A stretch of DNA of 64,000 nt from contig LBRD01000008.1 in the NCBI GenBank assembly GCA_000991245.1, positions 1,686 through 65,685 of the forward strand, read 5' to 3'. Source of the stretch: Parcubacteria group bacterium GW2011_GWC1_36_108. Its GTDB lineage: Bacteria > Patescibacteriota > Minisyncoccia > Moranbacterales > GWC2-37-73. Both the position numbers and the translations under genes were made by a program. Below the pieces are notes generated by a model. That model ran no database searches and had not been told where the DNA came from. It worked only from the letters and a program-made list of their open reading frames with translations. How positions within the stretch are numbered: the stretch's first letter is position 1; each line of letters begins with the position of its first letter. Positions 127-38,428 of the stretch are shown piece after piece.

Positions 127-2739
127 TTATTGTGGAAGAGTTTGAGTTGTTGCACCGTCAGTAGGTTGTGGAGCAGAGATTTCCTCGACGACTGGTGTAG
201 GCTCAGGAACAACTTCGGTATTTAAGTTCTCTGGTTTGTTTTCAATGCCGGCTGCGATATTGCTGATCATTTTTTGAATCTTGTCACGCACATCTTTATT
301 ACTGTCAGCAGGTAATAATTCTAATACTTTTCTATACTGCGCGCTGGCATCAGAATTTCTATTTGTTTTTTCATAAAGAGTTCCTAGTGAAAAATGAGTG
401 TTAATTTCCTTATCATTCTTGCTCAAAATATTTTTATAAATTGTTTCCGCAATTTTATTATCCTCGTCATTACCACGAGCTTGATGGATGCGTGCAGTGT
501 TGTAAACATAATTTAAATTATTTTGTTCCAGCACTGCAGCTTGTTCAATTGATTTTATTGCACCATCCAAATCATTCAAGGCTTCCTGCGTTAAAGCAAA
601 CTGGTAATGCGCGACAGCTAAATCATTTTTCTCATCAATGGCTTTTTGAAATGATTTTTTTGCCTGTTCAATTAATTCATTAGCTTCTTCAGGAGTCTTT
701 TTTGTAGATGCTTGAGACATTTGAATTTGTCCAATCTTCACAAAATATGCAGGATTGTGAGGTTCAAGCTCAAGAGCTTTTTTGTAATTATCTTGAGACA
801 ATGCAAATGAATCAGCAACATACAAACCAGAATTTTCATAAATTTGAGCAAGCGCTTCAACTGCCGCGACATCTTTAGGTGAAAGATTCTTGGCTTGATT
901 TACTGAAGAAATTGAATTATTCAAATAATCTTGAATAAGCCCCAAATTACGTTCACCTTCTCCTTTTAACGTTTCTTCATTTGCTAAACTCATTAATTCC
1001 TGTCCGAGTAAGATATAGTACCGACTTTCTTTATTGTTCAGAGAAATAGCTCCTGCCAATTTTGCGACACTGCCATCAGCAGTAATTTTTTGAGCTCGCA
1101 TCGCACTTGCGGCGCGCATATCAGCCGCATAAATTTTTCCCACAAAGATAAACAAAAATACCACACCAGCACTGACAACCATAAACACAAAAGCCAAGGC
1201 CAGTGCATATTTAGGAGAAGCTTTAAGCGACAACGTAAGGTGATTTTCTTCGGAATCACTTTCGAAAAGCAGCATTGCCACTGCTAAAGAGATAAATAAA
1301 ATTCCTAAAATAATCACCGATCCTTCTATTTTTCCTAAAAATGCATTCACCAACACTACCAGTGAAGCAGAAAAAAGTCCCAATGAATAAAGTTTATTTT
1401 TCTGTTTATTAATACTCAGGAGATAAACTCCAATACTTATAAATGTCAGCACAAGCAAAATCAAGGTGATTGTTCCAATAATTCCAATAGTTGAAAGCGC
1501 TTCAAAGAAAACACCAGCTCCTTGAAAAAATCGCAGATTGTAATATGGATTCAAGTTGAAACTTTGCGGTTTATGCAAAGAAAAATCATATCCATAGGTC
1601 GCTGGACCGCTACCAACCAATAAATTATCCTTCACTGAATTTTTGGTTATCTCCCAAGAAAGTTCACGTGCAGGACTGACTTCTACAGGAAGTTTAACGC
1701 GCGCAATTGAGTTTGAACCAATAATAAGGATTGTCAAAATTGCCACAAATGTTGCCATCGGAAGCCAAGTCCAATTTTCTTTCGGTCTAACAATCTGAGC
1801 TAAAATATAAATCAAGAAAAAACTGACTCCCGCAAGAACGCCCAGCCATGTGACAAAAGAATATAACATTAGCAAGACAAACAGATTTAAAATTAAGGTA
1901 GCAAACAGCACACTAACTGAAGCAACTTTCTTGACACCTTTGGTTTCAACATTCTCCAAAGAAAATATTTTCAAAATAAAAACAAGGATAAATGGAATCA
2001 TTGCCCCTAAAAATATCCCCATTCCCGTGATTGATCCCAGCGGACTAAGTGGCACAAATTGACTGAATTTTTCCGGGATCATAGACACACCCAAAAGATT
2101 AAGCGCCATCCAAACAGCCAAAATAAAATTTGCCGCAATCAAAAAACTGCTAACCAACGCGAATCTTTTTTTATTAAAATGACTAACGATTAAATAATAA
2201 ACGACAACCAAGGCAGTCACATTCATAAATCCGCGCGATGGATCTCCGAAATATCCCCAAAAACTGTGCCATCGGTCAACTGAAAAAAACAATGATACCG
2301 CGTAAGCCAACCAGAAAAGAACAATTGGGATGTCCAGCGGAGTTTTTTTGATTTTCATTTCACCCGTAATCACACCTTTCGAAACCCAGGCAACCAAGGC
2401 AATCAAAAGCCAAGCATAAAAATAAATCTGTTTTTCAAATGAAATTCCTTGCAAAGTAAGACCTGTGAAAAAAAGTGGAATACCAAAAAAGAGTGCGACC
2501 AAACTAATAGTGATAATGCTATCCAAAAAACCAATCATTCTTGGTTGTTGCGGATCTGTTTTTTCCGACTGTGGCTGCTCTTTTTTCTCACTAAACATAC
2601 TCTTAAAGTGCGTGCCGCTAGAAATTGAAACATTCGCCGCTTCCTTTCGAAACTCATCATTGTTTGGAGCATTTTTTGCTGGAACTTCAGAAACACCTTC
2701 ATTTCCACTTTTTTGGCTTGATTGAATTTGAATATTCAT
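127..2739 (-). CDS. Polytopic membrane protein with an O-antigen ligase (Wzy_C)-like core and C-terminal TPR repeats
   Basis: 870-aa ORF with more than 10 predicted TM helices in the N-terminal two thirds. The C-terminal ~300 aa show TPR-like periodicity (e.g. AHYQFALTQEALNDLDGAIKSIEQAAVLEQ). This architecture is common in CPR glycosylation-type proteins. Confidence 0.55.
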   Translation of the reverse strand: MNIQIQSSQKSGNEGVSEVPAKNAPNNDEFRKEAANVSISSGTHFKSMFSEKKEQPQSEKTDPQQPRMIGFLDSIITISLVALFFGIPLFFTGLTLQGISFEKQIYFYAWLLIALVAWVSKGVITGEMKIKKTPLDIPIVLFWLAYAVSLFFSVDRWHSFWGYFGDPSRGFMNVTALVVVYYLIVSHFNKKRFALVSSFLIAANFILAVWMALNLLGVSMIPEKFSQFVPLSPLGSITGMGIFLGAMIPFILVFILKIFSLENVETKGVKKVASVSVLFATLILNLFVLLMLYSFVTWLGVLAGVSFFLIYILAQIVRPKENWTWLPMATFVAILTILIIGSNSIARVKLPVEVSPARELSWEITKNSVKDNLLVGSGPATYGYDFSLHKPQSFNLNPYYNLRFFQGAGVFFEALSTIGIIGTITLILLVLTFISIGVYLLSINKQKNKLYSLGLFSASLVVLVNAFLGKIEGSVIILGILFISLAVAMLLFESDSEENHLTLSLKASPKYALALAFVFMVVSAGVVFLFIFVGKIYAADMRAASAMRAQKITADGSVAKLAGAISLNNKESRYYILLGQELMSLANEETLKGEGERNLGLIQDYLNNSISSVNQAKNLSPKDVAAVEALAQIYENSGLYVADSFALSQDNYKKALELEPHNPAYFVKIGQIQMSQASTKKTPEEANELIEQAKKSFQKAIDEKNDLAVAHYQFALTQEALNDLDGAIKSIEQAAVLEQNNLNYVYNTARIHQARGNDEDNKIAETIYKNILSKNDKEINTHFSLGTLYEKTNRNSDASAQYRKVLELLPADSNKDVRDKIQKMISNIAAGIENKPENLNTEVVPEPTPVVEEISAPQPTDGATTQTLPQ

Positions 2740-2899: not shown

Positions 2900-3502
2900 C
2901 TATATCCAAACATTTTCAATATTATTCCGGTCACGTTCCCACATTTCAGGGTTTGTTTGGATATATTCACGAATTTTATTCAATGACTCATCATTTCTGA
3001 TGACGTGATCGTAAAATCGAGGTTGCCAGGTAAAATTCAAATCGTTAATTGTTGCATATTTTTTAACACCAATTTTAAACCCACGAATAATGGATGCCAG
3101 ATTTTTTGATTGTGATCCAAATTTATTTTGTGGACACGGTAGAGACGCAAAATCTGTCAGGCATTGTAGAGACGCAAAATTTTGCGTCTCTACGCATTGT
3201 TGAATATTATTCCAATTTATTTCAATAACAACATGCACGTGATTTGGCATGACCACAAATTCAGATGCGTTCGCATGTGGAAAATGTTGTGGGATTTCTT
3301 GCAAACAATTTTCTGCGATTTTTCCAATCTCATTCAAAATCATTTTTCCATCGATAATTTCTCCAAAAAATTCTTCGCGGTTTTTTGTGCAGATCGTGAC
3401 GAAATACATTCCGTTTTGCGCGTAATCATAATTTTGCAAACGGGATGATTGGATGCGGTATTTGTTTTTGAATTTTTCCGGCATGGGTTTTTTGTCGGGC
3501 AC
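2900..3502 (-). CDS. rayT: IS200/IS605-family Y1 (HUH) transposase of the REP-associated RAYT type, carrying an in-frame REP insertion
   Basis: HUH motif MPNHVHVVIEI and a C-terminal catalytic-Tyr region WQPRFYDHVIRNDESLNKIREYIQTNP. The gene is flanked by REP palindromes. A 57-nt REP copy sits inside the ORF between the HUH and Tyr motifs and translates as VETQNFASLQCLTDFASLP. Confidence 0.8.
   Translation of the reverse strand: MPDKKPMPEKFKNKYRIQSSRLQNYDYAQNGMYFVTICTKNREEFFGEIIDGKMILNEIGKIAENCLQEIPQHFPHANASEFVVMPNHVHVVIEINWNNIQQCVETQNFASLQCLTDFASLPCPQNKFGSQSKNLASIIRGFKIGVKKYATINDLNFTWQPRFYDHVIRNDESLNKIREYIQTNPEMWERDRNNIENVWI
3138..3193. repeat. REP element (copy 2), a near-identical duplicate of copy 1, embedded in frame inside the RAYT coding sequence
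   Basis: ggtagagacgcaaaatctgtcaggcattgtagagacgcaaaattttgcgtctctacg is identical to 2836-2892 apart from the terminal base. Confidence 0.8.
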
Positions 3503-12495: not shown

Positions 12496-12561
12496 TAGTA
12501 GAAAAATTTTAAATTTTAAGTTTTAAATTTTAATTGAAATTATAATTTCCAAATAAACAAA

Positions 12562-12918
12562 TTACTTTTTATCAATTGTTATAATAATTTTAGAAAATAT
12601 TAAAGTTAATTCTTGTGCTTCTTTCCAAAATTTCAAGCATTTTTCTTTTTCATCAGGATTACTTTTAGCAATGAGTTGAAGCCAGTATTTTGTTTCTCTG
12701 GCTTCTTTTTTACAAATAGCTATTTTATTTTTGAAATCCTTTTGAGAACAAGCTCCATTTGCTTCAAAATAATTAGCCCCGATACTAGTTGCTGAACGAA
12801 TTAGTTGGCTAATTAATGGCATATTTATCATATCTTTCTTTATTGTTTTGAGAAAAACTATCATATCTTCACTAAATTCTGTTGTTCTTTTTTCTAAATC
12901 GTAATTTGATTTTGTCAT
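12562..12918 (-). CDS. Four-helix-bundle protein (TIGR02436 / 23S-rRNA-intervening-sequence protein family; Avd-like)
   Basis: 118 aa containing QLIRSATSIGANYFEANGACSQKDFKNKIAICKKEARETKYWLQLI, which is the family signature. Confidence 0.75.
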   Translation of the reverse strand: MTKSNYDLEKRTTEFSEDMIVFLKTIKKDMINMPLISQLIRSATSIGANYFEANGACSQKDFKNKIAICKKEARETKYWLQLIAKSNPDEKEKCLKFWKEAQELTLIFSKIIITIDKK

Positions 12919-12963: not shown

Positions 12964-13488
12964 TTATTTCTGCACCAGCACATCATCCTCAAAAACCTTA
13001 TCGGTAACAACTTTTCCCCTTGTTTCGTCGGATGCAATTCCAATTTTGGCAAGATCAACAGCAAATTTTCGGCGTTTGATTTCTTTAGGGTTTTGCTGCT
13101 CTTGCTCGTTGGCAAAAACTCCGGCTTTTTCTTTGAGCGATAATTCCAAAAGTTGTTGTTGCTCTTCGGTTAGTCTCATTTTGATAATTAAAAAGCCTTC
13201 TTGTTCGGCAGTTGAAAATTCCTTGTTTTCATCAGCCGTAAAAAGCACATCACCTCTTTGTAAGGTTCCTTCGACACCACCAGTGTCATAAATCTGAATC
13301 AAAAGCTGCACGGTTTTCTTTTCACCACTTTTAGCTGCTTCTTTAATGCTCATTTTTTCAATTGCCGGAGTTTGCTTGTACCATTTTACGGTTTTATAAA
13401 TTCCAAAAGAGAGGGCGAAAACAATCAAAACTATTCCAATCACAAAAACAGCAAATCTTTTTTTGTTTTCGATTTGGATTTTTTTCAT
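12964..13488 (-). CDS. Hypothetical membrane-anchored protein (N-terminal TM segment, extracytoplasmic domain)
   Basis: 174-aa ORF. The N-terminus KKRFAVFVIGIVLIVFALSFGIY is a single TM anchor; no recognisable catalytic motifs. Confidence 0.5.
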   Translation of the reverse strand: MKKIQIENKKRFAVFVIGIVLIVFALSFGIYKTVKWYKQTPAIEKMSIKEAAKSGEKKTVQLLIQIYDTGGVEGTLQRGDVLFTADENKEFSTAEQEGFLIIKMRLTEEQQQLLELSLKEKAGVFANEQEQQNPKEIKRRKFAVDLAKIGIASDETRGKVVTDKVFEDDVLVQK

Positions 13489-13535
13489 ATCTTTATTTGA
13501 AAATGTTTATTGATTCAATTATAGCACATTTAACG

Positions 13536-13655
13536 CTTTGGGTGGTTGGAGTGAAATCCTTTCACGCTTGGGGTGGTTGGGGTGTTTAGGGGTGGCATCG
13601 TTAATACTTGGGGTGGTTGGGGTGGCATTGTTAAAGCTTTGGGTGGTTGGGGATG
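13536..13655. repeat. Array of four G-rich units (TTGGGGTGGTTGGGGTG-like) directly 3' of the 217-aa four-helix-bundle gene, with G-quadruplex potential
   Basis: ctttgggtggttggagtg…gcttggggtggttggggtgtttaggggtgg…ttggggtggttggggtgg…ctttgggtggttggggatgttaggg. It is complementary to the C-rich array at 14241-14310. Confidence 0.7.
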
Positions 13656-14219
13656 TTAGGGTTTCCCATTTCCATTTCCATTTCTAAAGGAGATGCGTTT
13701 GCGGTAGAGATTTTCGGTGAAGCCGCCTTCGGTTTCATGTTTTCTTTTCAATGATTCGGCCAATTTGGCAAGCAAAAATCCATCCATCTGGCAAAATGTC
13801 AGCAGCATGTTGGCAGCCTGCTCAGCTGACTCCGCTGAAATGCTTGGGGTGTTTAGGGTGTTTAGGGACACCCAAACAACCCTAAACTCCCTAAATTTTT
13901 TGATGCGCGGATCATTCTTTTCCCAAATCAACAAATTTCTTTGACGCAGAAAATCTTGATAATCTTTGGTCAATTCTTCATTTGATCCATGCGCAACACC
14001 AACAAGAAAAATGTAACTCTTGAGCGATTCGGCAGTGTACCCTTCTGCTACATTCTGTGAATTGCTCCGCGCAGCTTGCACCATCTGATCATGAGTGCGA
14101 CTTTTTTTATCAATAAATTTATCACAAAATTGCACCGTCAAATCCTGAATAACCTTGCCCAGCATATACGCCACCAGATATTCATATCCCGGACGACTTT
14201 CGTTTTTTTGATTTTCCAT
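13656..14219 (-). CDS. Four-helix-bundle protein paralog (TIGR02436/Avd-like core plus ~90-aa C-terminal extension); start probably at MENQKNESRPGYEY (the ORF is open to 14309)
   Basis: QMVQAARSNSQNVAEGY…IFLVGVAHGSNEELTKDYQDFLRQRNL matches the Q..RAA.S…N.AEG…FL..A.GS..EL signature. It is paralogous to the 20552-21115 product (DFLRQR…KNDxR, EQAAN.LLT.C, KxKHxxEGGxxExLxRKR). Confidence 0.65.
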   Translation of the reverse strand: MENQKNESRPGYEYLVAYMLGKVIQDLTVQFCDKFIDKKSRTHDQMVQAARSNSQNVAEGYTAESLKSYIFLVGVAHGSNEELTKDYQDFLRQRNLLIWEKNDPRIKKFREFRVVWVSLNTLNTPSISAESAEQAANMLLTFCQMDGFLLAKLAESLKRKHETEGGFTENLYRKRISFRNGNGNGKP

Positions 14220-14240
14220 TTTGTTTGCATTTAAATTGAA

Positions 14241-14310
14241 CCCCCTAACACCCCTAACCGCCCACCAGTGTGAACACCCAAAAATCCCCAACCGCCCAAA
14301 ATACCCCAAG
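14241..14310. repeat. C-rich array (reverse complement of the GGGGTGGTTGGGG units) 5' of the 217-aa four-helix-bundle gene; inverted partner of 13536-13655
   Basis: ccccctaacacccctaaccgcccaccagtgtgaacacccaaaaatccccaaccgcccaaaatacccc. ccccaaccgccc is the reverse complement of gggcggttgggg. Confidence 0.7.
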
Positions 14311-14323
14311 AATTAGGATGACC

Positions 14324-17300
14324 CTACCTCCGCATTTCAACCTTGCCGGTGTTGTACAGGTTGGAAATTTCACTGGCGGAAAGAGCGCGGTTGTAGATAC
14401 GGACATCGTCAAGAGAACCATTGAAATAGTTAGAACTTCCAGATCTTCCAATGTCCAAACGAGTTTTTATTGCTGCACCACCACTCGTATCTGTTGTAGA
14501 TATTGCCTGTTGTTGTCCATCAACGAAAAGAAGAGAGCCATCGACATCATTGTTTTCAACAACAAAAATCATTTGATGCCAATTATTGTCATAAATATTT
14601 ACAGGGTTAGTTGGAGAGAAATATCTCCATTCTGTATTACCTAAATACAATAATGGTCCATTTGACGCTCCAGTATATTCTACATGTAGTGATGGCGGCG
14701 GCGGAGCAGTATTTGTAGACCATCGAAGCAGTGGGGCATTGCTTTGACTGCCATCGTATTTTACCCAAGCAGAAACAGTTGTAGTGTCAGACAATATGCT
14801 GGAGTTTGTGCCACAGTCTACATAGTCACTCGTTCCATTAAACTTCATACCCTGTCTTATTTTCCCTGGTGTCACTGTGGCGCCGGAGATGGTGCCGTTG
14901 TTGCCGAGGCCAGATCGGTCAAACGCTGTCGTGCCGGAAACGTCGGGACCGTCGAAGGACCAGAGGCCGACAAGGCCGTTAGTGCTTTTTGAGTTCTGCG
15001 AAGTCTGCATTGTTGTTTGCCCTTGGTTGTATAGTTGCCCGATTTCGCTGGCGGAAAGCGGGCGATTGTAAAGATGAACGTCATCCAAAAGTCCATTATA
15101 CTTGTTTCTAGCAGAATCACCCGCCGCATCATACCCATAACCAACATATAAAGGATAACCAGCTGTGATTAAATTTCCACTAATGGCTACAGTATCCTTT
15201 AAAATTCCATTAAAATATACTCTTGCATTTGTGCCATCCCAATTAACAGACAAGAAATACCATTCATTTAGTGGATAATTCCAACTTGTCGTGTAATTCG
15301 TTGCATTGTGTGTGATTTTGATTCTTGTTTTTCCTTGCCACAAGTCTGGCATCTGAGATATTGACCAAGTTCTATCGCCAACTCCACCCAACCAAATATT
15401 TGTTGTTGCCTTAGAAATCATTGCACCTTTTGGATCTGTGGTTGTTTTTACCCAGGCATTAAAAGAATATCCGGTTACAAGATTAATTGAAGTATTATCA
15501 GGTATATTAATTTTATCTCCACTTACTCCATTAAAACTAAACCCTTGACCACGCCTTCCCGGAATCACTGTCGCACCAGAAATTGTGCCGTTATTATTGT
15601 TACCGGAAACATCTTTGGTCACAGTACCAGAAGTGTCGTCGCCGTCGAATGTCCAGTGCCCAATAAGTCCAGCATCAAGATTTGGCGATGATTGCTGGGT
15701 CTGCATGACTGTGTCAGAAAATTGATCAGCGCCGATGTCCCAAGGATTCACACGCACCTGCCCATCAATATCAGTGTCGAATGCAAAAAATGAGTCGCGC
15801 TGCAAATCCAAACCTGCGCCTTTGGCGGAAGTGTCCGCTAATTTAAGATGAAAATCTTTATTGGCCGCGTCAACGAAAGCAAACGTCTGACTAATTTTAT
15901 TATTTGCACCCTGCCCAATTGCATCTGTACTGTCTGTTGCATTATAATCAGTGCCAGAAGCGAAGGTGCCAAAATATGTATATAAATTGCCACCAGCATT
16001 TTTCAACAAATTATTTTTAGCAATCGCCGTCCCTGCTGACACACGAATTCCGTTTGTAGAATCAATAATTGTATTATTGTAAATATAAGCAGCTGCATCA
16101 GAATCAAGAATAGCAACGCCTGTTCCTTCTAAACCAAGACAATCATAAATTATATTGTTCCAAATATAAAAAACACTTCCTGCTCCAGCATAGTTAACGC
16201 TAACTCCGTTATCGTTATAACTTCCAGTAGCAGTACTTTTGATAATGTTATTGGAAATTGAAATATTTGCCTGTGCAAGACTGGCTCCCATATTAACAAC
16301 GCTGTAATCCCCTGAATACATTTGCAAACCATCTATTTTTATATTTTCCTCATAATTTAGAATGGAACTACTTGATGCATTTTCAATTCGATACTTTCCA
16401 TCATCCCATCTCCCCTGATGACGCTGGCTTGCGTTAGCCTCGGTTGCCGTGCTTGTTGGAGTATAAATTTTAATATAATTCGACAATCCCGTTGTGTAAC
16501 CATTAATAGTGACTCCTGCCGTATCCGCACCGGAGTCATAATAACAAGGGAAATTGAGTTGATAATTTCCTGCTACCAAATCTGTAGTATTTAAGTGAGT
16601 AGCATCAACAGCTCCAGCTTCGGCAGCGGAAAGTGAAGCGTAAGCGTGGGCGATTGAAGTTACATCGGCATTTGTTGCAGCGGTGGGGGCGGTGCCGGTT
16701 GCGGATTGGCAACCCCAGACTGTGGTTGAGGTTTTGTTTGTAATATAGCAAGCTCCATCTGTGTATGTTATCAAATCTCCCACTCCCATATTAGTGGCAG
16801 TTTGCGCCACTGAAAAAGTTGCGGTCCTTGCGGTGGCATCAACTGTGACAGTACCTGCACCTGTTTCATGAGAATTGGTGTTTTGTCCGACGGAATAATA
16901 GATTGCTATTGCTGCTTCGTCGGCACCGATATCGACAATACCCGCTCCAGTTGGTCGCGTCTGTCCATCTATATCAGTCGTAATCGGCAAATTAGCATCC
17001 GCGCTTAAATCTACACCTGCATTTTTGGCAGCCGAATCACTAGGGGAAAGATGGTAGTCTTTGTTGGCAGCGTCGGAGAAAGCGACAGTGGTGGAATTTT
17101 TGTTGTTTGTACCCTGCTGAATATCATTTGCCAGATCTGAAATATTATTTGAAGAAGCAGCATTAAAAGTTCCAGAACCTGCATATCCATCAGCAAAATT
17201 TTGAACAATATTATTCTTTGCAATAACCGTTCCAGATATTATACCAATACCACTACCAGCTCCAAATCCAACCAAGGTATTATTAAATATATTTACAGTT

Positions 17301-20300
17301 GCAAAGGAATAATTATCATAAATTCCATAAGAAGCTTGCCCATATATTAATGAATTTATGATATTTATCACTGAGGTATTATGATAACTTATTTGAATAC
17401 CAGTATTGCTTCCAGTTGTAACTGGTCCACCACGTATAATGCAATCTTTTATTGTTGTAACTCCACTTCCAGCATTTAGAGAATAGCTAGAGGAACCTCC
17501 ATTTCCTCCTGGAGCATATGCATATGTTTGAATGCCCTCAATTTTATTAAACTGAGTCCCTATACTCATTATTACGCCATAATCAGGAAGTTTTAACTTG
17601 TATTTCCCATCGTCCCATTTCCCCTGATGCCTTTGCGAATTATTCGCTTCAGTGGAAGCATTATTTGGTGTATAAATTTTAATAAAATTATTTGCCCCGG
17701 TAGTGTAGCCAGAAACAACAACTGCAGTCGTGTCTGCAGCGCTATCATAATAGCAAGGGAAATTAAGTTGATAATTTCCTGTCACTAAATCCGTAGTATT
17801 CAAATGATTAGCATCAATTGCTCCAGTGACTGCAGCAGAAAGAGAAGTGTATTCATGTTTAATTGAAACGACGGTTGAAGTTGTGATGTCAGCAGGAACT
17901 GCTCCAGTTTTTGTCACAAGATTCCAAACTGAAGTTGATGTTTTTCAGCAACTGATTGCCCGACAGAATAATAGATTGCGGTTGCTGCTTCGTCGGCGCC
18001 GATATCCCATATTGTGCTTGAAGATGATGGACGGGTTTGATTGTCGATGTCAGTGTTGAATGCAAAATTAGCATCCGCTGATAAGTCGCTACCAGAATTC
18101 TTCGCTGATGTGTCGCTAGGACTCAAGTGGAAATCCTTATTGGCTACGTCGACAAAAGATACTGTCTGATTTATCTTTGAATTGACTGGGTTGGTCAAAT
18201 TATTGGCAGTTGCGTCAGAAGAAATATTATTAACGGAACTTTTTCCATCATTCAGGTAAGCTGATACAACATTATAATCAATTACATTTCCAAATGCGAT
18301 ATTATTACCAAAACCAGCCAAAGATTTATACATATTTGTACCACCAAAATACGCTCCAGTCCCACACCCATACATTGTATTATTATAATAAACATTATTA
18401 CTATAATTACCCTGTTGATCAATGCTTAATCCAGCCACATCAAAATTATAAATAATATTATTAAAAGATTTAAAATTATATCCAAAACGAACAGCTATAC
18501 CACTGTGACCAGTAGTACTTGATTCTCGTTTTAAAATGGAATTTTTAAGTGTTACATAATCAGCATAAGAATTACCAAAAGCATTGGTTGATAACGTGCC
18601 AGCCACAGAAATTTGTAACCCTTCAATTACAGTGTAGTCCTGGTCATTATTGATATATAAAGCATTTGTGCCAGTTGCAGGCACGAGTTTGTATTTCCCA
18701 TCATCCCATTTTCCAGAATGCCTTTGACTCTGATTTACTTCGGTTAAAATATTATTCGGCGTATAAATTTTTATAAAATTACTTGCCCCAGTTGTGTATC
18801 CAGAAACTGTAACCGCAGTTGTATCCGCGCCAGAATCATAGTAGCAAGGGAAATTCAATTGATAATTTCCAGCCACCAAATCCGTTGTATTCAAATGGGT
18901 AGCATCAACTGCGCCAGCTTCGGCAGCTGAAAGTGAAGAGTAGGCGTGGGCGATTGAAGTTACATCGGCATTTGTGACTGCAGTAGGGGCTCCGCCAGTG
19001 GCGGATTGACAACCCCAGACTGTGGTTGAAGTTTTTGATAAAATATAGCAAGCTCCGCCAGTGTAAGTTATCAAATCGCCCACTCCCATATTTGTTGCAG
19101 TTTGCGCGACTGAGAAAGTTGCGGTTCTAGCAATGGCATCTACCGTAACAGTGCCGCTGCCTGTTTCATGAGAATTGGTATTTTGTCCGACACTGTAATA
19201 GATGGCTGTTGCCGCTTCGTCAGCGCCAATATCCCATATTACACTTGAAGACGATGGACGCGTTTGCCCGTCGATGTCAGTATTAAATGCAAAATTAGAA
19301 TCCGCTGATAAGTCGCTACCGGAATTCTTCGCTGATGTGTCGCTAGGGCTTAAGTGAAAATCTTTATTGGCAGCGTCGGCGAAGGCGACAGTGGTGGAAT
19401 TTTTGGAATTCGCACCAGGTGCATCGGCGGCGAGATCGGAAATGTTATAATCTGACCCAGTAAAATTACCAGAGTACACATGAAATCCATCAATATTATT
19501 TTGCGAAATAGAATTTTTTACAACGAAAGTACCGTAATTAGCCCAATAACCGTTGGTTGTATTATATATAGTATTATTATTTGCATACAATATACCGCCA
19601 ATACTATTATTAAATCTCAATCCTATACCACTTGAAGCGTCATATAATATATTATTATAAACCTTATTAATTCCGGAGGAAGCTATATTAACAAGCGTCG
19701 CATTATTACCTACAGTACTCTTTACAATTGAATTGCCAAGTTCCAAATTATTCCCAGCTGCACCAAAAAATATAGCGCCATCTCCGCCAGTTATAAGTGT
19801 TTTTTGTATCTGCAATCCTTGAATTTTTGAATACGGGATATTTACATACAATGCATTAGCCGCATTTGCAACCAATCTATACTTCCCATCATCCCACTTT
19901 CCCTGATGTCTTTGGCTTACATTGGTTTCAGTAGTCGTGCTTGTTGGAGTATATATTTTGATATAATTTGAAACACCTGTCGTATATCCAGAAACTGTCA
20001 CCGCCGTTGTATCCGCTGCACTGTCATAATAACAAGGGAAATTGAGCTGATAATTTCCTGTTACTAAATCTGTAGTGTTGAGATGATTGGCGTCAACCGC
20101 ACCAGTAACTGCAGCAGACAAACTTGTGTATTCATGTTTAATTGAAACGACGGTTGAAGTTGTGATGTCAGCAGGAACTGCTCCAGTTTTTGTCACAAGA
20201 TTCCAAACTGAAGTTGATGTTTTTCCACTTGCAATTGTGACAGTCGGCGTGCCAGTTTTTAAATCAGCAGCAGATTGCCCAATTGAATAGTAGATTGCAG

Positions 20301-20493
20301 TGGCTGCGTGTGCCTGTGAGGAAAACGCGAAAAAACCGATAGCGAAAAATGCCGCCGCCAAGAAAAATCGAACACCCGTAGAGACGCGATTAATCGCGTC
20401 TCTACCATGCGCGTCTCTATCACGATTTTTTGAAAAATATTTTGTTATTTTTACCAATCGCTCATGAGCGAAAGGTTTTGATTTTAGATTCAT
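14324..20493 (-). pseudogene. Giant surface-protein paralog split into two overlapping ORFs (896-aa N-terminal part 17914-20604 and 1197-aa C-terminal part 14324-17917) by a frameshifting intragenic deletion; either a pseudogene or an assembly collapse in repeats
   Basis: The N-terminal ORF has a signal peptide (…GVRFFLAAAFFAIGFFAFSSQAHA|ATAIYYS) and the same module types as 3541-12495. It stops at …AIYYSVGQSVAEKHQLQFGIL*. The next ORF restarts 4 nt earlier, mid-module (MTKTGAVPADITTSTVV…), and carries three C-terminal LamG-like domains. At the junction about 140 nt of an otherwise conserved module are missing. Confidence 0.6.
20378..20424. repeat. REP palindrome (identical 28-mer to 3505-3532) plus a partial extra arm, lying in frame in the 5' region of the giant paralog
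   Basis: gtagagacgcgattaatcgcgtctctac-catgcgcgtctctatcacg, translated in the ORF as …NRDRDAHGRDAINRVSTG…. Confidence 0.75.
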
Positions 20494-20551
20494 TTTTTCA
20501 TGCTTAAGTTTCTTAAGACACTTAAGGTTCTTACTAAGATTCTTATGTTTC

Positions 20552-21115
20552 TTAATATCCCCTGTATTCCCGTCTTTTTCTGTGCAACTCCTCTGAAAGA
20601 CCACCTTCTTTTTGATGCTTCAATTTCAACGCCTCAACTTGGCGATGGAGAAGCAATGTTGCTTGATGGCAAAGCGTCAGCAGAAAATTTGCAGCTTCTT
20701 CACTTTGCTCTGGTAGTTCAATTGTTTTCAGGAGCTCTTCGGTTTCATACTCCTTGTTTAAGACGCTTAAGTTACTTAGGTTTCTTACGAGTGTCGCGCT
20801 TCGCGCTCGCAGTGCGAGTACTCGCGAGTCATTTTTGTCCCATTTAGAAAGTTTTCTCTGACGCAAAAAATCTTCCAGATCACCAGTCAATTCTTCCAAG
20901 GACCCCTTGGCGATGCCCGTGAGGTTGATGGCCACTTTTAGAGAAACATCCATGTCATCCGAGCCTTCCACGATGTTTTGTTTTCCACTTCTGGCTGCAC
21001 CATCCATTTGCTCTTTCAGTTTCCAACTTTTTATCCATTTTTCAGCAAACTCAACCTCTCGGTCATAGATGATGACCGAAAACCAATAGGTATAAAGTTT
21101 TTTGTATGGTTGCAT
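20552..21115 (-). CDS. Four-helix-bundle protein paralog (Avd-like/TIGR02436 core plus C-terminal extension)
   Basis: QMDGAARSGKQNIVEG…GIAKGSLEELTGDLEDFLRQRKL, and a C-terminus matching the 13656-14219 product. Confidence 0.6.
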   Translation of the reverse strand: MQPYKKLYTYWFSVIIYDREVEFAEKWIKSWKLKEQMDGAARSGKQNIVEGSDDMDVSLKVAINLTGIAKGSLEELTGDLEDFLRQRKLSKWDKNDSRVLALRARSATLVRNLSNLSVLNKEYETEELLKTIELPEQSEEAANFLLTLCHQATLLLHRQVEALKLKHQKEGGLSEELHRKRREYRGY

Positions 21116-21155
21116 AAGTTTTTTAAGATTCTTGGATTACCTAAGTTTCTTCATG

Positions 21156-36121: not shown

Positions 36122-38428
<2,307 letters not shown>

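What the first reader, a model, noticed from the sequence alone, without database searches (positions are those of the whole stretch)
13536..14310. Four-helix-bundle gene cassette bounded by complementary G-rich and C-rich repeat arrays (G-quadruplex-capable)
The 217-aa Avd-like gene is flanked by two arrays. On the 3' side are four TTGGGGTGGTTGGGGTG-type units (13536-13655). On the 5' side is an array of the reverse-complement units (ccccaaccgccc…, 14241-14310). Any transcript therefore forms a long stem enclosing the ORF.

A further copy (ggggtgtttagggtgtttaggg with its own inverted partner ccctaaac) sits inside the gene and encodes an extra low-complexity peptide (VWVSLNTLNTP) absent from the paralog.

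This resembles an IVS-like or MITE-like mobile cassette carrying the 23S-IVS-family gene. In a genome of roughly 35% GC these G4 runs are conspicuous.
Basis: seen in the sequence. Interest (0 to 1): 0.65.

Follow-up and report, generated by a model that had tools for sequence, protein, structure and literature searches.

The report
IVS-like four-helix-bundle gene cassette

Summary
The G-rich unit occurs 8 times in 64 kb, all within 13539-14298 (0.64 expected). The gene is 187 aa (ATG at 14219), a "four helix bundle suffix" protein.

The "extra" internal copy is not an insertion private to this gene. It is a conserved inverted repeat in the loop between helices 3 and 4, present in every relative examined, with rare codons held in place (Arg AGG 69% inside versus 11% outside).

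All three four-helix-bundle genes in the window carry flank arrays, each with its own unit: TTAGGG/TTGGGG, CTTAAG and TTTTAAA. The third has a 46-nt terminal inverted repeat.

In six unit types, the flank units copy the gene's own internal repeat. One operon occurs in three states: empty; filled at one gene junction; filled at another. The arrays are absent from empty sites.

The ORF-enclosing stem can form in this copy, but few relatives have one. G-quadruplex potential is confined to this subfamily.

Best reading: an IVS-like selfish cassette outside rRNA, whose arrays are its termini. RNase III processing is inferred by analogy only. I rate it a new variant of a known kind, of moderately high interest.

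The parts
14233..14311 (-). 5' flank array of cassette 1. It is G-rich on the sense (minus) strand, built of 9-nt TTGGGG/TTTGGG/TTAGGG-type units, and lies between the stop of the 1197-aa LamG gene (14324) and the ATG at 14219.
   Evidence: G4Hunter -2.04 and -1.76 on the + strand, meaning G-rich on the sense strand
13656..14219 (-). Four-helix-bundle suffix protein gene, 187 aa. Helices 1-3 span residues 16-93, a structured linker spans 94-131, helix 4 spans 132-164 and an extra helix spans 167-181.
   Evidence: TIGR04258 42.1 bits (cut-off 40), TIGR02436 33.3 bits (cut-off 24), PF05635 E=7e-8. AF2 pLDDT 91.7. Foldseek best matches 2gsc, 2rld and the DGR Avd chain 8ub7_B.
13827..13916 (-). 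Conserved internal inverted repeat in the helix 3-helix 4 linker. On the sense strand a G arm (TTTAGGG x2 + TTTGGG, encoding FREFRVVW) is followed by a C arm (CCCTAAAC x2 + CCCCAA, encoding SLNTLNTP). The core arms are 13844-13867 and 13871-13894.
   Evidence: -34.7 kcal/mol, z=-5.1; covariance-model hit 75.7 bits; codon bias
13536..13664 (-). 3' flank array of cassette 1. It is C-rich on the sense strand, with four units of about 30 nt (an 18-nt CACCCCAACCACCCCAAG core plus spacer). It ends just before a TATAAT-like box and the ATG (13488) of the next gene.
   Evidence: period 30 x2.5, score 108; G4Hunter +2.2
13666..13684 (-). Hexanucleotide repeat (CCATTT x3.2 on the + strand) encoding the C-terminal NGNGNG. 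It has one unit fewer in the near-identical contigs L024 and L039.
20552..21115 (-). Cassette 2: the true paralogue, 187 aa, 41% identical, with the same four-helix-bundle plus suffix architecture. Its linker encodes VRNLSNLSVLNK from 9-nt CTTAAG-type units (20766-20787).
21116..21150 (-). 5' flank array of cassette 2 (cttaggtaatccaagaatcttaaaaaactt), between the stop of the 2623-aa gene and the ATG.
20492..20555 (-). 3' flank array of cassette 2 (CTTAAGATT x5.6, period 9). It overlaps the stop codon of gene 2 at its 5' end and stops directly before an ATG that may start the next gene.
12562..12918 (-). Cassette 3: a plain four-helix-bundle (S23p/IVS-type) gene of 118 aa.
   Evidence: TIGR02436 80 bits; PF05635 60.4 bits
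12923..12968 (-). Left (5') terminal inverted repeat of cassette 3, made of heptamers (ATTTAAA x4.4).
   Evidence: 46-nt arms, 87% complementary
12502..12547 (-). Right (3') terminal inverted repeat of cassette 3 (AAATTTT x4.3). The whole element is 467 nt. A promoter-like TTAAAA-16-TAAAAT on the minus strand faces the 2984-aa gene.
   Evidence: terminal stem in both the MFE and the centroid structure, z=-3.68; duplex z=-6.6

Best explanation
The locus is one of three IVS-like selfish gene cassettes in this window. Each is a four-helix-bundle (S23p/Avd-family) gene bracketed by arrays of short units (7-9 nt). Each gene has its own unit type.

The arrays are the termini of the cassette. They travel with the gene and fill the gap between the stop codon of the upstream host gene and the start codon of the downstream one. 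They are missing from unoccupied sites.

In cassette 1 the 5' terminus is G-rich and the 3' terminus C-rich on the sense strand, so the co-transcript can close into a stem around the ORF. This is the architecture of 23S rRNA intervening sequences, where such a stem is cut by RNase III.

A second, conserved nucleic-acid element lies inside the gene. It is a G-arm/C-arm inverted repeat that encodes the insertion between helix 3 and helix 4, which defines the 'suffix' subfamily. The flank units are copies of its arms, and the 5' array is complementary to its C arm.

Shown here:
- the anatomy;
- the specificity of unit type to gene subfamily;
- the nucleotide-level constraint on the linker;
- presence/absence polymorphism at gene junctions, shown for sister subfamilies.

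Inferred only:
- that the RNA stems are processed;
- whether the arrays act in mobility, in expression, or in both;
- what the protein does.
For: Specificity of the units:
- All 8 unit matches in the window lie at this gene.
- Of 50 non-redundant subfamily-1 loci, 25 have at least 3 G/C-type flank units and none has CTTAAG-type units. Of 6 subfamily-2 loci, 0 and 4 respectively. Background density is 0.40 and 0.07 units per 200 nt.
- Flank 7-mers match the gene's own linker 12.45 times on average, against 5.59 for distal controls and 6.70 for the gene body (n=44, p about 1e-5).
- Six unit types each match their own gene.

Mobility:
- L104 is TP_methylase|MetRS|TatD with both junctions empty.
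- L035 has a CTTAAG-flanked cassette between TP_methylase and MetRS.
- L103 has a different cassette between MetRS and TatD, and its 3' end appears to supply TatD's start codon (annotated start lies inside the cassette).
- Window gene 2 and L034 (90% amino-acid identity) share DNA homology only over the gene, plus 10 nt upstream and 48 nt downstream, in different contexts. Homology with L004 extends 90 nt into the upstream array and stops there.

IVS-like anatomy:
- Cassette 3 is 467 nt with 46-nt terminal inverted repeats.
- The Coxiella IVS is 428-444 nt with a 28-bp terminal stem cut by RNase III, an S23p ORF, and tandem heptamers directly upstream of the ORF start (PMC4990558).

Internal element:
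- It is predicted as a hairpin in 42 loci, with median z of -4.1.
- 83.9% of cells are paired, against at most 66% in slid registers.
- Codon bias in the linker versus outside: AGG 69% vs 11%, CTA 50% vs 9%, TCC 53% vs 12%.
- In the L103 subfamily the G run is read in another codon phase, yet a hairpin of -37.6 kcal/mol remains.

Orientation bias:
- Upstream arrays are G-sense in 13 loci and C-sense in 3. Downstream arrays are C-sense in 11 and G-sense in 2.
Against: - The filled/empty-site proof comes from subfamilies 2 and 3, not from the subfamily of the finding.
- Half of subfamily-1 loci (26 of 50) have no flank arrays.
- ORF-enclosing complementarity is significant in only 4 of 62 loci.
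- For this copy the stem is largely compositional (z=-1.55 against dinucleotide shuffles).
- Covariation in the internal hairpin is modest: 23 double-change cells against 15.1 +/- 3.2 (8 of 500 shuffles).
- No target-site duplication, no transposase link and no solo copies were seen.
- No transcript or cleavage data exist.
- Array orientation flips in some relatives (L002 vs L003, L028).
Confidence: 0.55

Rival explanations
1. The arrays and the internal repeat are cognate binding sites on double-stranded DNA (or on RNA) for the cassette's own four-helix-bundle protein. The protein would use them for autoregulation, or to recognise its own termini during mobilisation. Unit type and protein subfamily would co-evolve for that reason.
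For: - Unit type tracks protein subfamily strictly.
- Several units are palindromes typical of oligomeric binders (CTTAAG, TCCGGA-like, TTTAAA).
- The 9-nt spacing is close to one helical turn.
- Arrays occur in either orientation, which suits recognition of double-stranded DNA.
- Relatives of the fold form pentameric rings, and the DGR accessory protein Avd has the same fold and sits in a DGR ribonucleoprotein complex (8ub7) (PMC4990558).
Against: - No sequence-specific binding is known for this family.
- Half of the loci lack arrays.
- It is unclear why a binding site would have to sit inside the coding region in every member.
- Nothing was tested directly.
Confidence: 0.2
2. The arrays are neutral by-products. 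Slippage-prone 9-nt coding repeats in the linker seed similar microsatellite-like arrays nearby through slippage and gene conversion, and these have no function.
For: - Unit number varies between relatives (L017 and L021 linkers; arrays of window gene 2 versus L034).
- Arrays are absent in half of the loci.
- A hexanucleotide repeat in the tail varies between near-identical contigs.
Against: - The arrays lie 300 nt or more from the linker, on both sides, exactly filling the intergenic gaps.
- They recur in unrelated contexts and in six unit types.
- Orientation is biased (13:3 and 11:2).
- Cassette 3 has a 46-nt inverted repeat but no internal repeat.
- L035 has CTTAAG flank arrays although its own linker lacks CTTAAG units.
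Confidence: 0.12
3. The arrays are G-quadruplex or i-motif regulatory elements that control transcription or translation of the gene.
For: Four of the six G4Hunter peaks in 64 kb are these arrays. The sense-strand 5' leader is G-rich, so an RNA quadruplex is possible.
Against: - Sister cassettes with the same architecture use units that cannot form quadruplexes (CTTAAG, TTTTAAA, AATAAGAC).
- The internal G arm does not reach a score of 1.5.
- Orientation relative to the gene flips in some relatives.
Confidence: 0.08
4. The gene is an accessory (Avd-like) component of a diversity-generating retroelement, and the repeats are template/variable-repeat-like sequences.
For: - The fold matches DGR Avd (8ub7_B).
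- Family genes sit next to DGR modules (Lcl_C target, bAvd, RVT_1) in L026 and L034.
- Neighbours are often giant LamG or Lcl_C surface proteins.
Against: - No reverse transcriptase was found among the large ORFs of the window that were scanned.
- Most loci sit in housekeeping or tRNA contexts.
- The repeats are not in a C-terminal variable region of a target protein.
- The DGR loci already have their own bAvd.
Confidence: 0.05

Closest known systems
23S rRNA intervening sequences (IVS) carrying an S23p ORF (Leptospira, Coxiella, Xanthomonas group)
   Same: - Same protein family and fold (PF05635/TIGR02436; Foldseek matches 2gsc and 2rld).
- The ORF lies in the loop of a stem formed by terminal inverted repeats.
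- Element size matches: cassette 3 is 467 nt, the Coxiella IVS 428-444 nt.
- Short tandem repeats sit directly upstream of the ORF start and vary in number (Coxiella GACAGAT heptamers; PMC4990558).
   Different: - It is not in rRNA. It lies between protein-coding genes, or next to tRNA-Arg(CCU)/tRNA-Pro genes in relatives.
- The termini are arrays of units rather than one unique inverted repeat.
- The 'suffix' subfamily carries an additional conserved hairpin inside the coding region, made of the same units.
- RNase III excision is untested.
Rickettsia palindromic elements (RPE) inserted in frame in protein-coding genes (my own knowledge: Ogata et al. 2000)
   Same: A palindromic DNA element is translated in frame as an extra segment between secondary-structure elements of a protein.
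   Different: - Here the element is fixed in a whole protein family and its nucleotides are kept.
- It is not dispersed through many unrelated genes.
- No solo copies were found.
MITEs and TIR-bounded non-autonomous transposons
   Same: Terminal inverted repeats, presence/absence polymorphism and small size.
   Different: - It carries a gene that is not a known transposase.
- No target-site duplication was seen.
- There are no multiple near-identical copies.
- Insertion is precisely at stop/start junctions.
DGR accessory protein Avd
   Same: Four-helix-bundle fold, and occasional adjacency to a DGR reverse transcriptase (L026, L034).
   Different: It has an extra linker and C-terminal helix, usually no reverse transcriptase nearby, and its own repeat arrays.

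Membership tests
Four helix bundle suffix protein (TIGR02436 + TIGR04258) | NCBIfam models score above their curated cut-offs | tested here: met
   TIGR04258 scores 42.1 bits (cut-off 40) at residues 132-179. TIGR02436 scores 33.3 bits (cut-off 24) at residues 29-97. Pfam PF05635 scores 33.0 bits, just under its 33.8 cut-off, with E=7e-8.
Four helix bundle suffix protein (TIGR02436 + TIGR04258) | S23p/Avd-type four-helix-bundle fold | tested here: met
   AF2 pLDDT is 91.7. Foldseek matches 2gsc (TM-score on target 0.84) and 2rld. The linker (94-131) is an insertion between helices 3 and 4.
23S rRNA intervening sequence (IVS) element | Located inside a 23S (or 16S) rRNA gene helix | tested here: not met
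   No rRNA is present in the window; Rfam finds tRNAs only. No rRNA lies next to any of the 40 relatives scanned.
23S rRNA intervening sequence (IVS) element | ORF of the S23p family enclosed by complementary termini that form a stem | tested here: met
   Cassette 3 has 46-nt arms that are 87% complementary; the stem appears in both the MFE and the centroid structure (z=-3.68). In cassette 1 the stem is present in the MFE and centroid structures, but the whole-cassette fold has z=-1.55 only (the flank duplex also z=-1.55).
23S rRNA intervening sequence (IVS) element | Excision from the precursor by RNase III | not testable with these tools
   Needs transcript mapping or an in vitro cleavage assay.
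MITE / TIR transposon | Terminal inverted repeats plus target-site duplication | tested here: inconclusive
   Inverted termini are present: AAGTAGCTTAAG...CTTAAGAAACTT in L035 (10 of 12 match), and 46 nt in cassette 3. No target-site duplication is recognisable at the filled versus empty sites, which are only 72-75% related.
MITE / TIR transposon | Multiple dispersed, near-identical or solo copies | tested here: not met
   A covariance model of the hairpin finds one copy per family gene and none elsewhere in 348 kb. Array clusters away from family genes number 1 in 203.6 kb. Whole genomes were not available.
Diversity-generating retroelement | Reverse transcriptase and a template/variable repeat pair in the locus | tested here: not met
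   No RVT domain was found in the 17 large ORFs scanned. Smaller ORFs were not all scanned.
G-quadruplex regulatory element | At least four G3+ runs with short loops, conserved across orthologous loci | tested here: inconclusive
   The motif is present here, with G4Hunter scores up to 2.2. It is not conserved: 26 of 50 relatives have no array, and sister subfamilies use units that cannot form quadruplexes.

The most novel reading that the evidence does not exclude
Four-helix-bundle (S23p/Avd-family) genes with their cognate repeat arrays form a previously unrecognised class of autonomous mobile cassettes. The small protein itself would recognise the unit arrays (its termini and the matching hairpin in its own coding sequence) and promote insertion at stop/start junctions and in stable-RNA operons. 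This might go through an RNA intermediate that uses a DGR-type reverse transcriptase in trans. It would also explain how classical rRNA intervening sequences spread.
Probability: 0.15. Interest if true: 0.9.

Novelty: new variant of a known kind. Interest (0 to 1): 0.62.

Why it matters
The origin, mobility and function of rRNA intervening sequences and their S23p ORFs have been open since the early 1990s. PMC4990558 states that functionality and origin remain unclear, and cites the old idea that the ORF is a mobility factor.

Here the same gene family appears outside rRNA, in many copies per Patescibacteria genome, with three useful properties:
- clear filled and empty sites;
- termini specific to each subfamily;
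- a matching hairpin kept inside the coding sequence.

This gives a concrete, testable system with defined ends, defined unit specificity and natural controls in one genome. It can be used to ask whether these proteins recognise their own repeats and whether the stems are processed.

It also matters for annotation. The arrays cause spurious N- and C-terminal extensions and apparent read-through fusions with neighbouring genes.

Tried and rejected
- **Insertion private to this gene.** Rejected: the peptide and the DNA hairpin are conserved family-wide.
- **Protein-level selection alone explains the internal repeat.** Rejected because of the rare-codon bias and because the G run is read in another codon phase in the L103 subfamily.
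- **Rare-codon pause cluster.** It cannot explain the non-coding flank copies.
- **Two abutting cassettes explain the internal hairpin.** Rejected: that would give C then G, whereas G then C is observed.
- **REP/RAYT system linked to the IS200-like ORF at 2900-3502.** No dispersed copies; not pursued.
- **Type III toxin-antitoxin (ToxIN-like) repeat RNA.** Considered only: the units are 7-9 nt rather than about 36 nt, and there were no PADLOC hits.
- **DGR.** No reverse transcriptase found in the window.
- **Programmed frameshift at TTTAGGG.** The downstream domain is in frame 0 and conserved, so this was dropped.
- **Array units derived from the neighbouring tRNA-Pro acceptor stem (CGGGGTG/CACCCCG).** The resemblance is only suggestive.
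- **Dinucleotide-shuffle batch for all loci.** Failed technically and was replaced by mononucleotide shuffles.
- **Literature searches.** Nothing was found on TIGR04258 / 'four helix bundle suffix'. No paper was found that describes repeat arrays around these genes.
- **INPHARED phages.** No homologue.
Full report
**1. Observation**

Reading 13200-14700 shows the gene on the minus strand. On the plus strand, four G-rich units of about 30 nt lie at 13536-13664, and C-rich units of the reverse-complement type lie at 14233-14311.

- The core GGGGTGGTTGGGG (up to 2 mismatches) occurs 8 times in 64 kb. All matches fall within 13539-14298; 0.64 are expected by chance and 0 of 100 shuffles reach 8.
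- TRF reports a 30-nt period (x2.5, score 108) and 9-nt TTGGGGTGG units.
- The repeat finder gives inverted arms between the two flanks of 22-32 nt at 76-88% complementarity. It also gives an internal hairpin, 13844-13867 with 13871-13894.
- G4Hunter finds six regions with |score| >= 1.5 in the window, and four of them are these arrays.

One correction: the 217-aa ORF starting at TTG 14309 reads through the repeat. All homologues begin at the ATG at 14219, which gives 187 aa.

**2. The gene**

- It matches TIGR02436 (four helix bundle, residues 29-97) and TIGR04258 (four-helix suffix, residues 132-179), both above their cut-offs. PF05635 matches at E=7e-8.
- An AlphaFold model (pLDDT 91.7) has helices at 16-35, 41-61 and 66-93, then a structured linker at 94-131, then helices at 132-164 and 167-181.
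- Foldseek's best matches are the pentameric S23p-family structures 2gsc and 2rld. The DGR Avd chain 8ub7_B also appears.
- The linker is therefore an insertion between helix 3 and helix 4 of an S23p/Avd-type bundle.
The true paralogue is 20552-21115 (187 aa, 41% identical, same architecture).
- The family is large (3086 and 3903 hits for the two genes) and mostly from Patescibacteria.
- The window itself is a Patescibacteria-type chromosome stretch carrying gyrB, ligA, type IV pilus genes and recG. There is no rRNA, and no reverse transcriptase among the large ORFs scanned.

**3. The internal copy is a conserved element, not a private insertion**

- FREFRVxW...SLNTP is conserved in all 16 homologues aligned, with W116, N123, T124 and P125 invariant.
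- At the DNA level nearly all relatives carry three or four TTAGGG/TTTGGG units followed by three to five CCCCAA/CCCTAA units, with a 9-nt (three-codon) period.
- Codon usage in the linker is skewed towards the codons that build these units: Arg AGG 69% versus 11% outside, Leu CTA 50% versus 9%, Ser TCC 53% versus 12%, Thr ACC 57% versus 21%.
- The region folds as a hairpin in 42 loci, with median z of -4.1 and 86% below -2.
- On a 34-sequence alignment, 83.9% of cells pair, against at most 66% in slid registers. Covariation proper is modest: 23 double-change cells against 15.1 +/- 3.2 (8 of 500 shuffles).
- Unit number varies, as in the L017 and L021 linkers.
- In a third subfamily (L103) the G arm is read in another codon phase (EIGEIGEIWG), yet a hairpin of -37.6 kcal/mol remains.
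- A covariance model of the hairpin finds exactly one copy per subfamily-1 gene and no solo copy in 348 kb.

I conclude that the nucleic-acid element is under selection.

**4. Flank arrays match each gene's own internal units**

- Gene 2 has CTTAAG-type 9-nt units in its linker (VRNLSNLSVLNK) and in both flanks.
- Its relatives L034-L038 show the same units in five unrelated contexts.
- Gene 3 has no linker but is bracketed by 46-nt inverted repeats built of TTTTAAA/TTTTAAG heptamers. The arms are 87% complementary, the duplex z is -6.6, and the terminal stem appears in both the MFE and the centroid structure (z=-3.68). The element is 467 nt long.
- Further unit types: AATA(A/G)GAC in a second L003 gene, found in the flank, the helix 1-2 loop and the linker; and GTCGGAC in a viral-contig relative.
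- Quantitatively, 25 of 50 subfamily-1 loci have at least 3 G/C-type flank units and none has CTTAAG-type units. Among 6 subfamily-2 loci the counts are 0 and 4. In 203.6 kb away from the genes, only two clusters occur, and one belongs to window gene 2.
- A unit-agnostic 7-mer test gives 12.45 flank matches to the gene's own linker, against 5.59 for distal DNA and 6.70 for the gene body (n=44, p about 1e-5).

**5. Mobility**

One housekeeping operon occurs in three states:

- L104: TP_methylase|MetRS|TatD, with both junctions empty (tatTAAaaattATG and aaaaTAATG).
- L035: a CTTAAG-flanked cassette sits between TP_methylase and MetRS.
- L103: that junction is empty, and a different family member sits between MetRS and TatD. 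Its 3' end appears to provide TatD's start codon: the start called for TatD lies inside the cassette.

The arrays are absent from the empty sites, so they belong to the insert.

Supporting comparisons:

- Window gene 2 and L034 (90% amino-acid identity) share DNA only over the gene, plus 10 nt upstream and 48 nt downstream. Homology with L004 extends 90 nt into the upstream array and no further.
- A contig that is 96% identical to the window (L039) diverges exactly at 12964, where cassette 3 begins.
- This proof is for sister subfamilies. For subfamily 1 the evidence is the diversity of contexts.

**6. How general is the enclosing stem?**

- In this copy the 5' (G) and 3' (C) arrays pair at -76.5 kcal/mol, and the stem is present in both the MFE and the centroid structure.
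- However, any G-rich/C-rich pair does nearly as well: z=-1.55 against dinucleotide shuffles and -3.8 against mononucleotide shuffles.
- Among 50 subfamily-1 loci, 26 have no arrays, 8 have only an upstream G array, 7 have only a downstream C array, and 2 have both (the window and L025).
- Orientation is biased: upstream arrays are G-sense in 13 loci and C-sense in 3; downstream arrays are C-sense in 11 and G-sense in 2.
- Flank-to-flank complementarity reaches z < -3 in 4 of 62 loci. Complementarity between the 5' flank and the linker is more common (31% below -2, 19% below -3).
- In one clade the upstream G array instead pairs with C-type units inserted in the helix 1-2 loop.
- L002 and L003 carry the same 3' array in opposite orientations, sharing a 21-nt stretch.

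**7. Comparison with known systems**

- The Coxiella IVS is a 428-444-nt selfish element with a 28-bp terminal stem cut by RNase III and an S23p ORF. It has two or three tandem heptamers immediately upstream of the ORF start, and their number varies between strains. Its origin and function are called unclear (PMC4990558).
- In CPR bacteria, insertions in rRNA genes sometimes encode 23S_rRNA_IVP proteins (10.1101/2024.02.27.582315).
- The window cassettes share the protein family, the size, the terminal complementarity and the upstream short tandem repeats. They are not in rRNA, so membership in 'rRNA IVS' fails on location.
- I found no paper on TIGR04258 or on repeat arrays around these genes.

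**8. Verdict**

- The mechanism by which the arrays act (RNA stem processing, protein recognition or DNA recombination) is inferred, not shown.
- G-quadruplex capacity is a side property of one unit type.

Noticed in passing
L006, L010-L014, L045, L049, L053, L055-L059, L062, L063, L070, L071 (relatives of the gene): 17 of 50 non-redundant subfamily-1 loci have a tRNA within 150 nt of the gene. All 30 tRNAs found in those loci are tRNA-Arg(CCT), tRNA-Pro(CGG) or tRNA-Pro(GGG), in at least four different arrangements. These tRNAs read AGG, CCG and CCC, the rare G/C-rich codons that build the linker repeat. No rRNA was adjacent to any locus scanned.
   Followed up: partly
L002, L003, L008, L040-L042, L046, L069: The family ORF has no stop codon and runs through the 3' array into the next large ORF. 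In L003 the G-sense array would encode the hydrophobic core of the next protein's signal peptide (GLGVWVLGVLGILGVLGGVGVQSASA|DYY). In L002 the same array is inverted.
   Followed up: partly
L026 and L034: Family genes lie directly beside complete DGR modules (Lcl_C target, bAvd, RVT_1). Many other copies follow giant LamG, Peptidase_S74 or Lcl_C surface-protein genes: the window twice, and L003, L016, L025, L028, L036 and L098.
   Followed up: partly
window 2900-3502 (-): A 200-aa ORF with an IS200-like Y1 transposase domain (PF01797, E=9e-7) lies just downstream of the 2984-aa gene. No link to the arrays was found.
   Followed up: no
window 14324-17917 and 17914-20604 (-): Two large ORFs (1197 and 896 aa; the former has LamG domains) abut in different frames. 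This may be one giant gene with a frameshift, or a sequencing error. The giant proteins contain long internal repeats (AHAYASLSAAEAGAVDATHLNT...).
   Followed up: no
window 13666-13684; L024, L039: The hexanucleotide repeat encoding the C-terminal NGNGNG has one unit fewer (NGNG) in two contigs that are 96-99.6% identical to the window, which indicates recent slippage.
   Followed up: yes
L039 2006-2080: In the 96%-identical contig, the DNA after the 174-aa gene is replaced by a different gene. That gene is preceded by four CGCTGAT(A/T) units at irregular spacing.
   Followed up: no
L098 952-1211; L097; L100/L101: These are decayed copies. L098 is truncated right after the internal hairpin, with a C-sense array upstream. 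L097 and L100 are frameshifted pseudogenes.
   Followed up: partly
L015, L017, L018, L020, L021, L080, L085, L089: A second in-frame insertion of C-type 9-nt units (KSPKDPTYPNL) lies in the helix 1-2 loop. In several of these loci (L015, L020, L021, L080, L085, L089) it can pair with the upstream G array, enclosing the start codon.
   Followed up: partly
window 2002-2028 and 37068-37095: These are the only other G4Hunter peaks (|score| >= 1.5) in the window, both C-rich on the plus strand. They were not examined.
   Followed up: no
L106 (IMGVR_UViG_3300014039_000053): This is the only viral-contig relative (42% identity). It again shows upstream units (GTCGGACnG) that match a palindromic hairpin in its linker.
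   Followed up: partly
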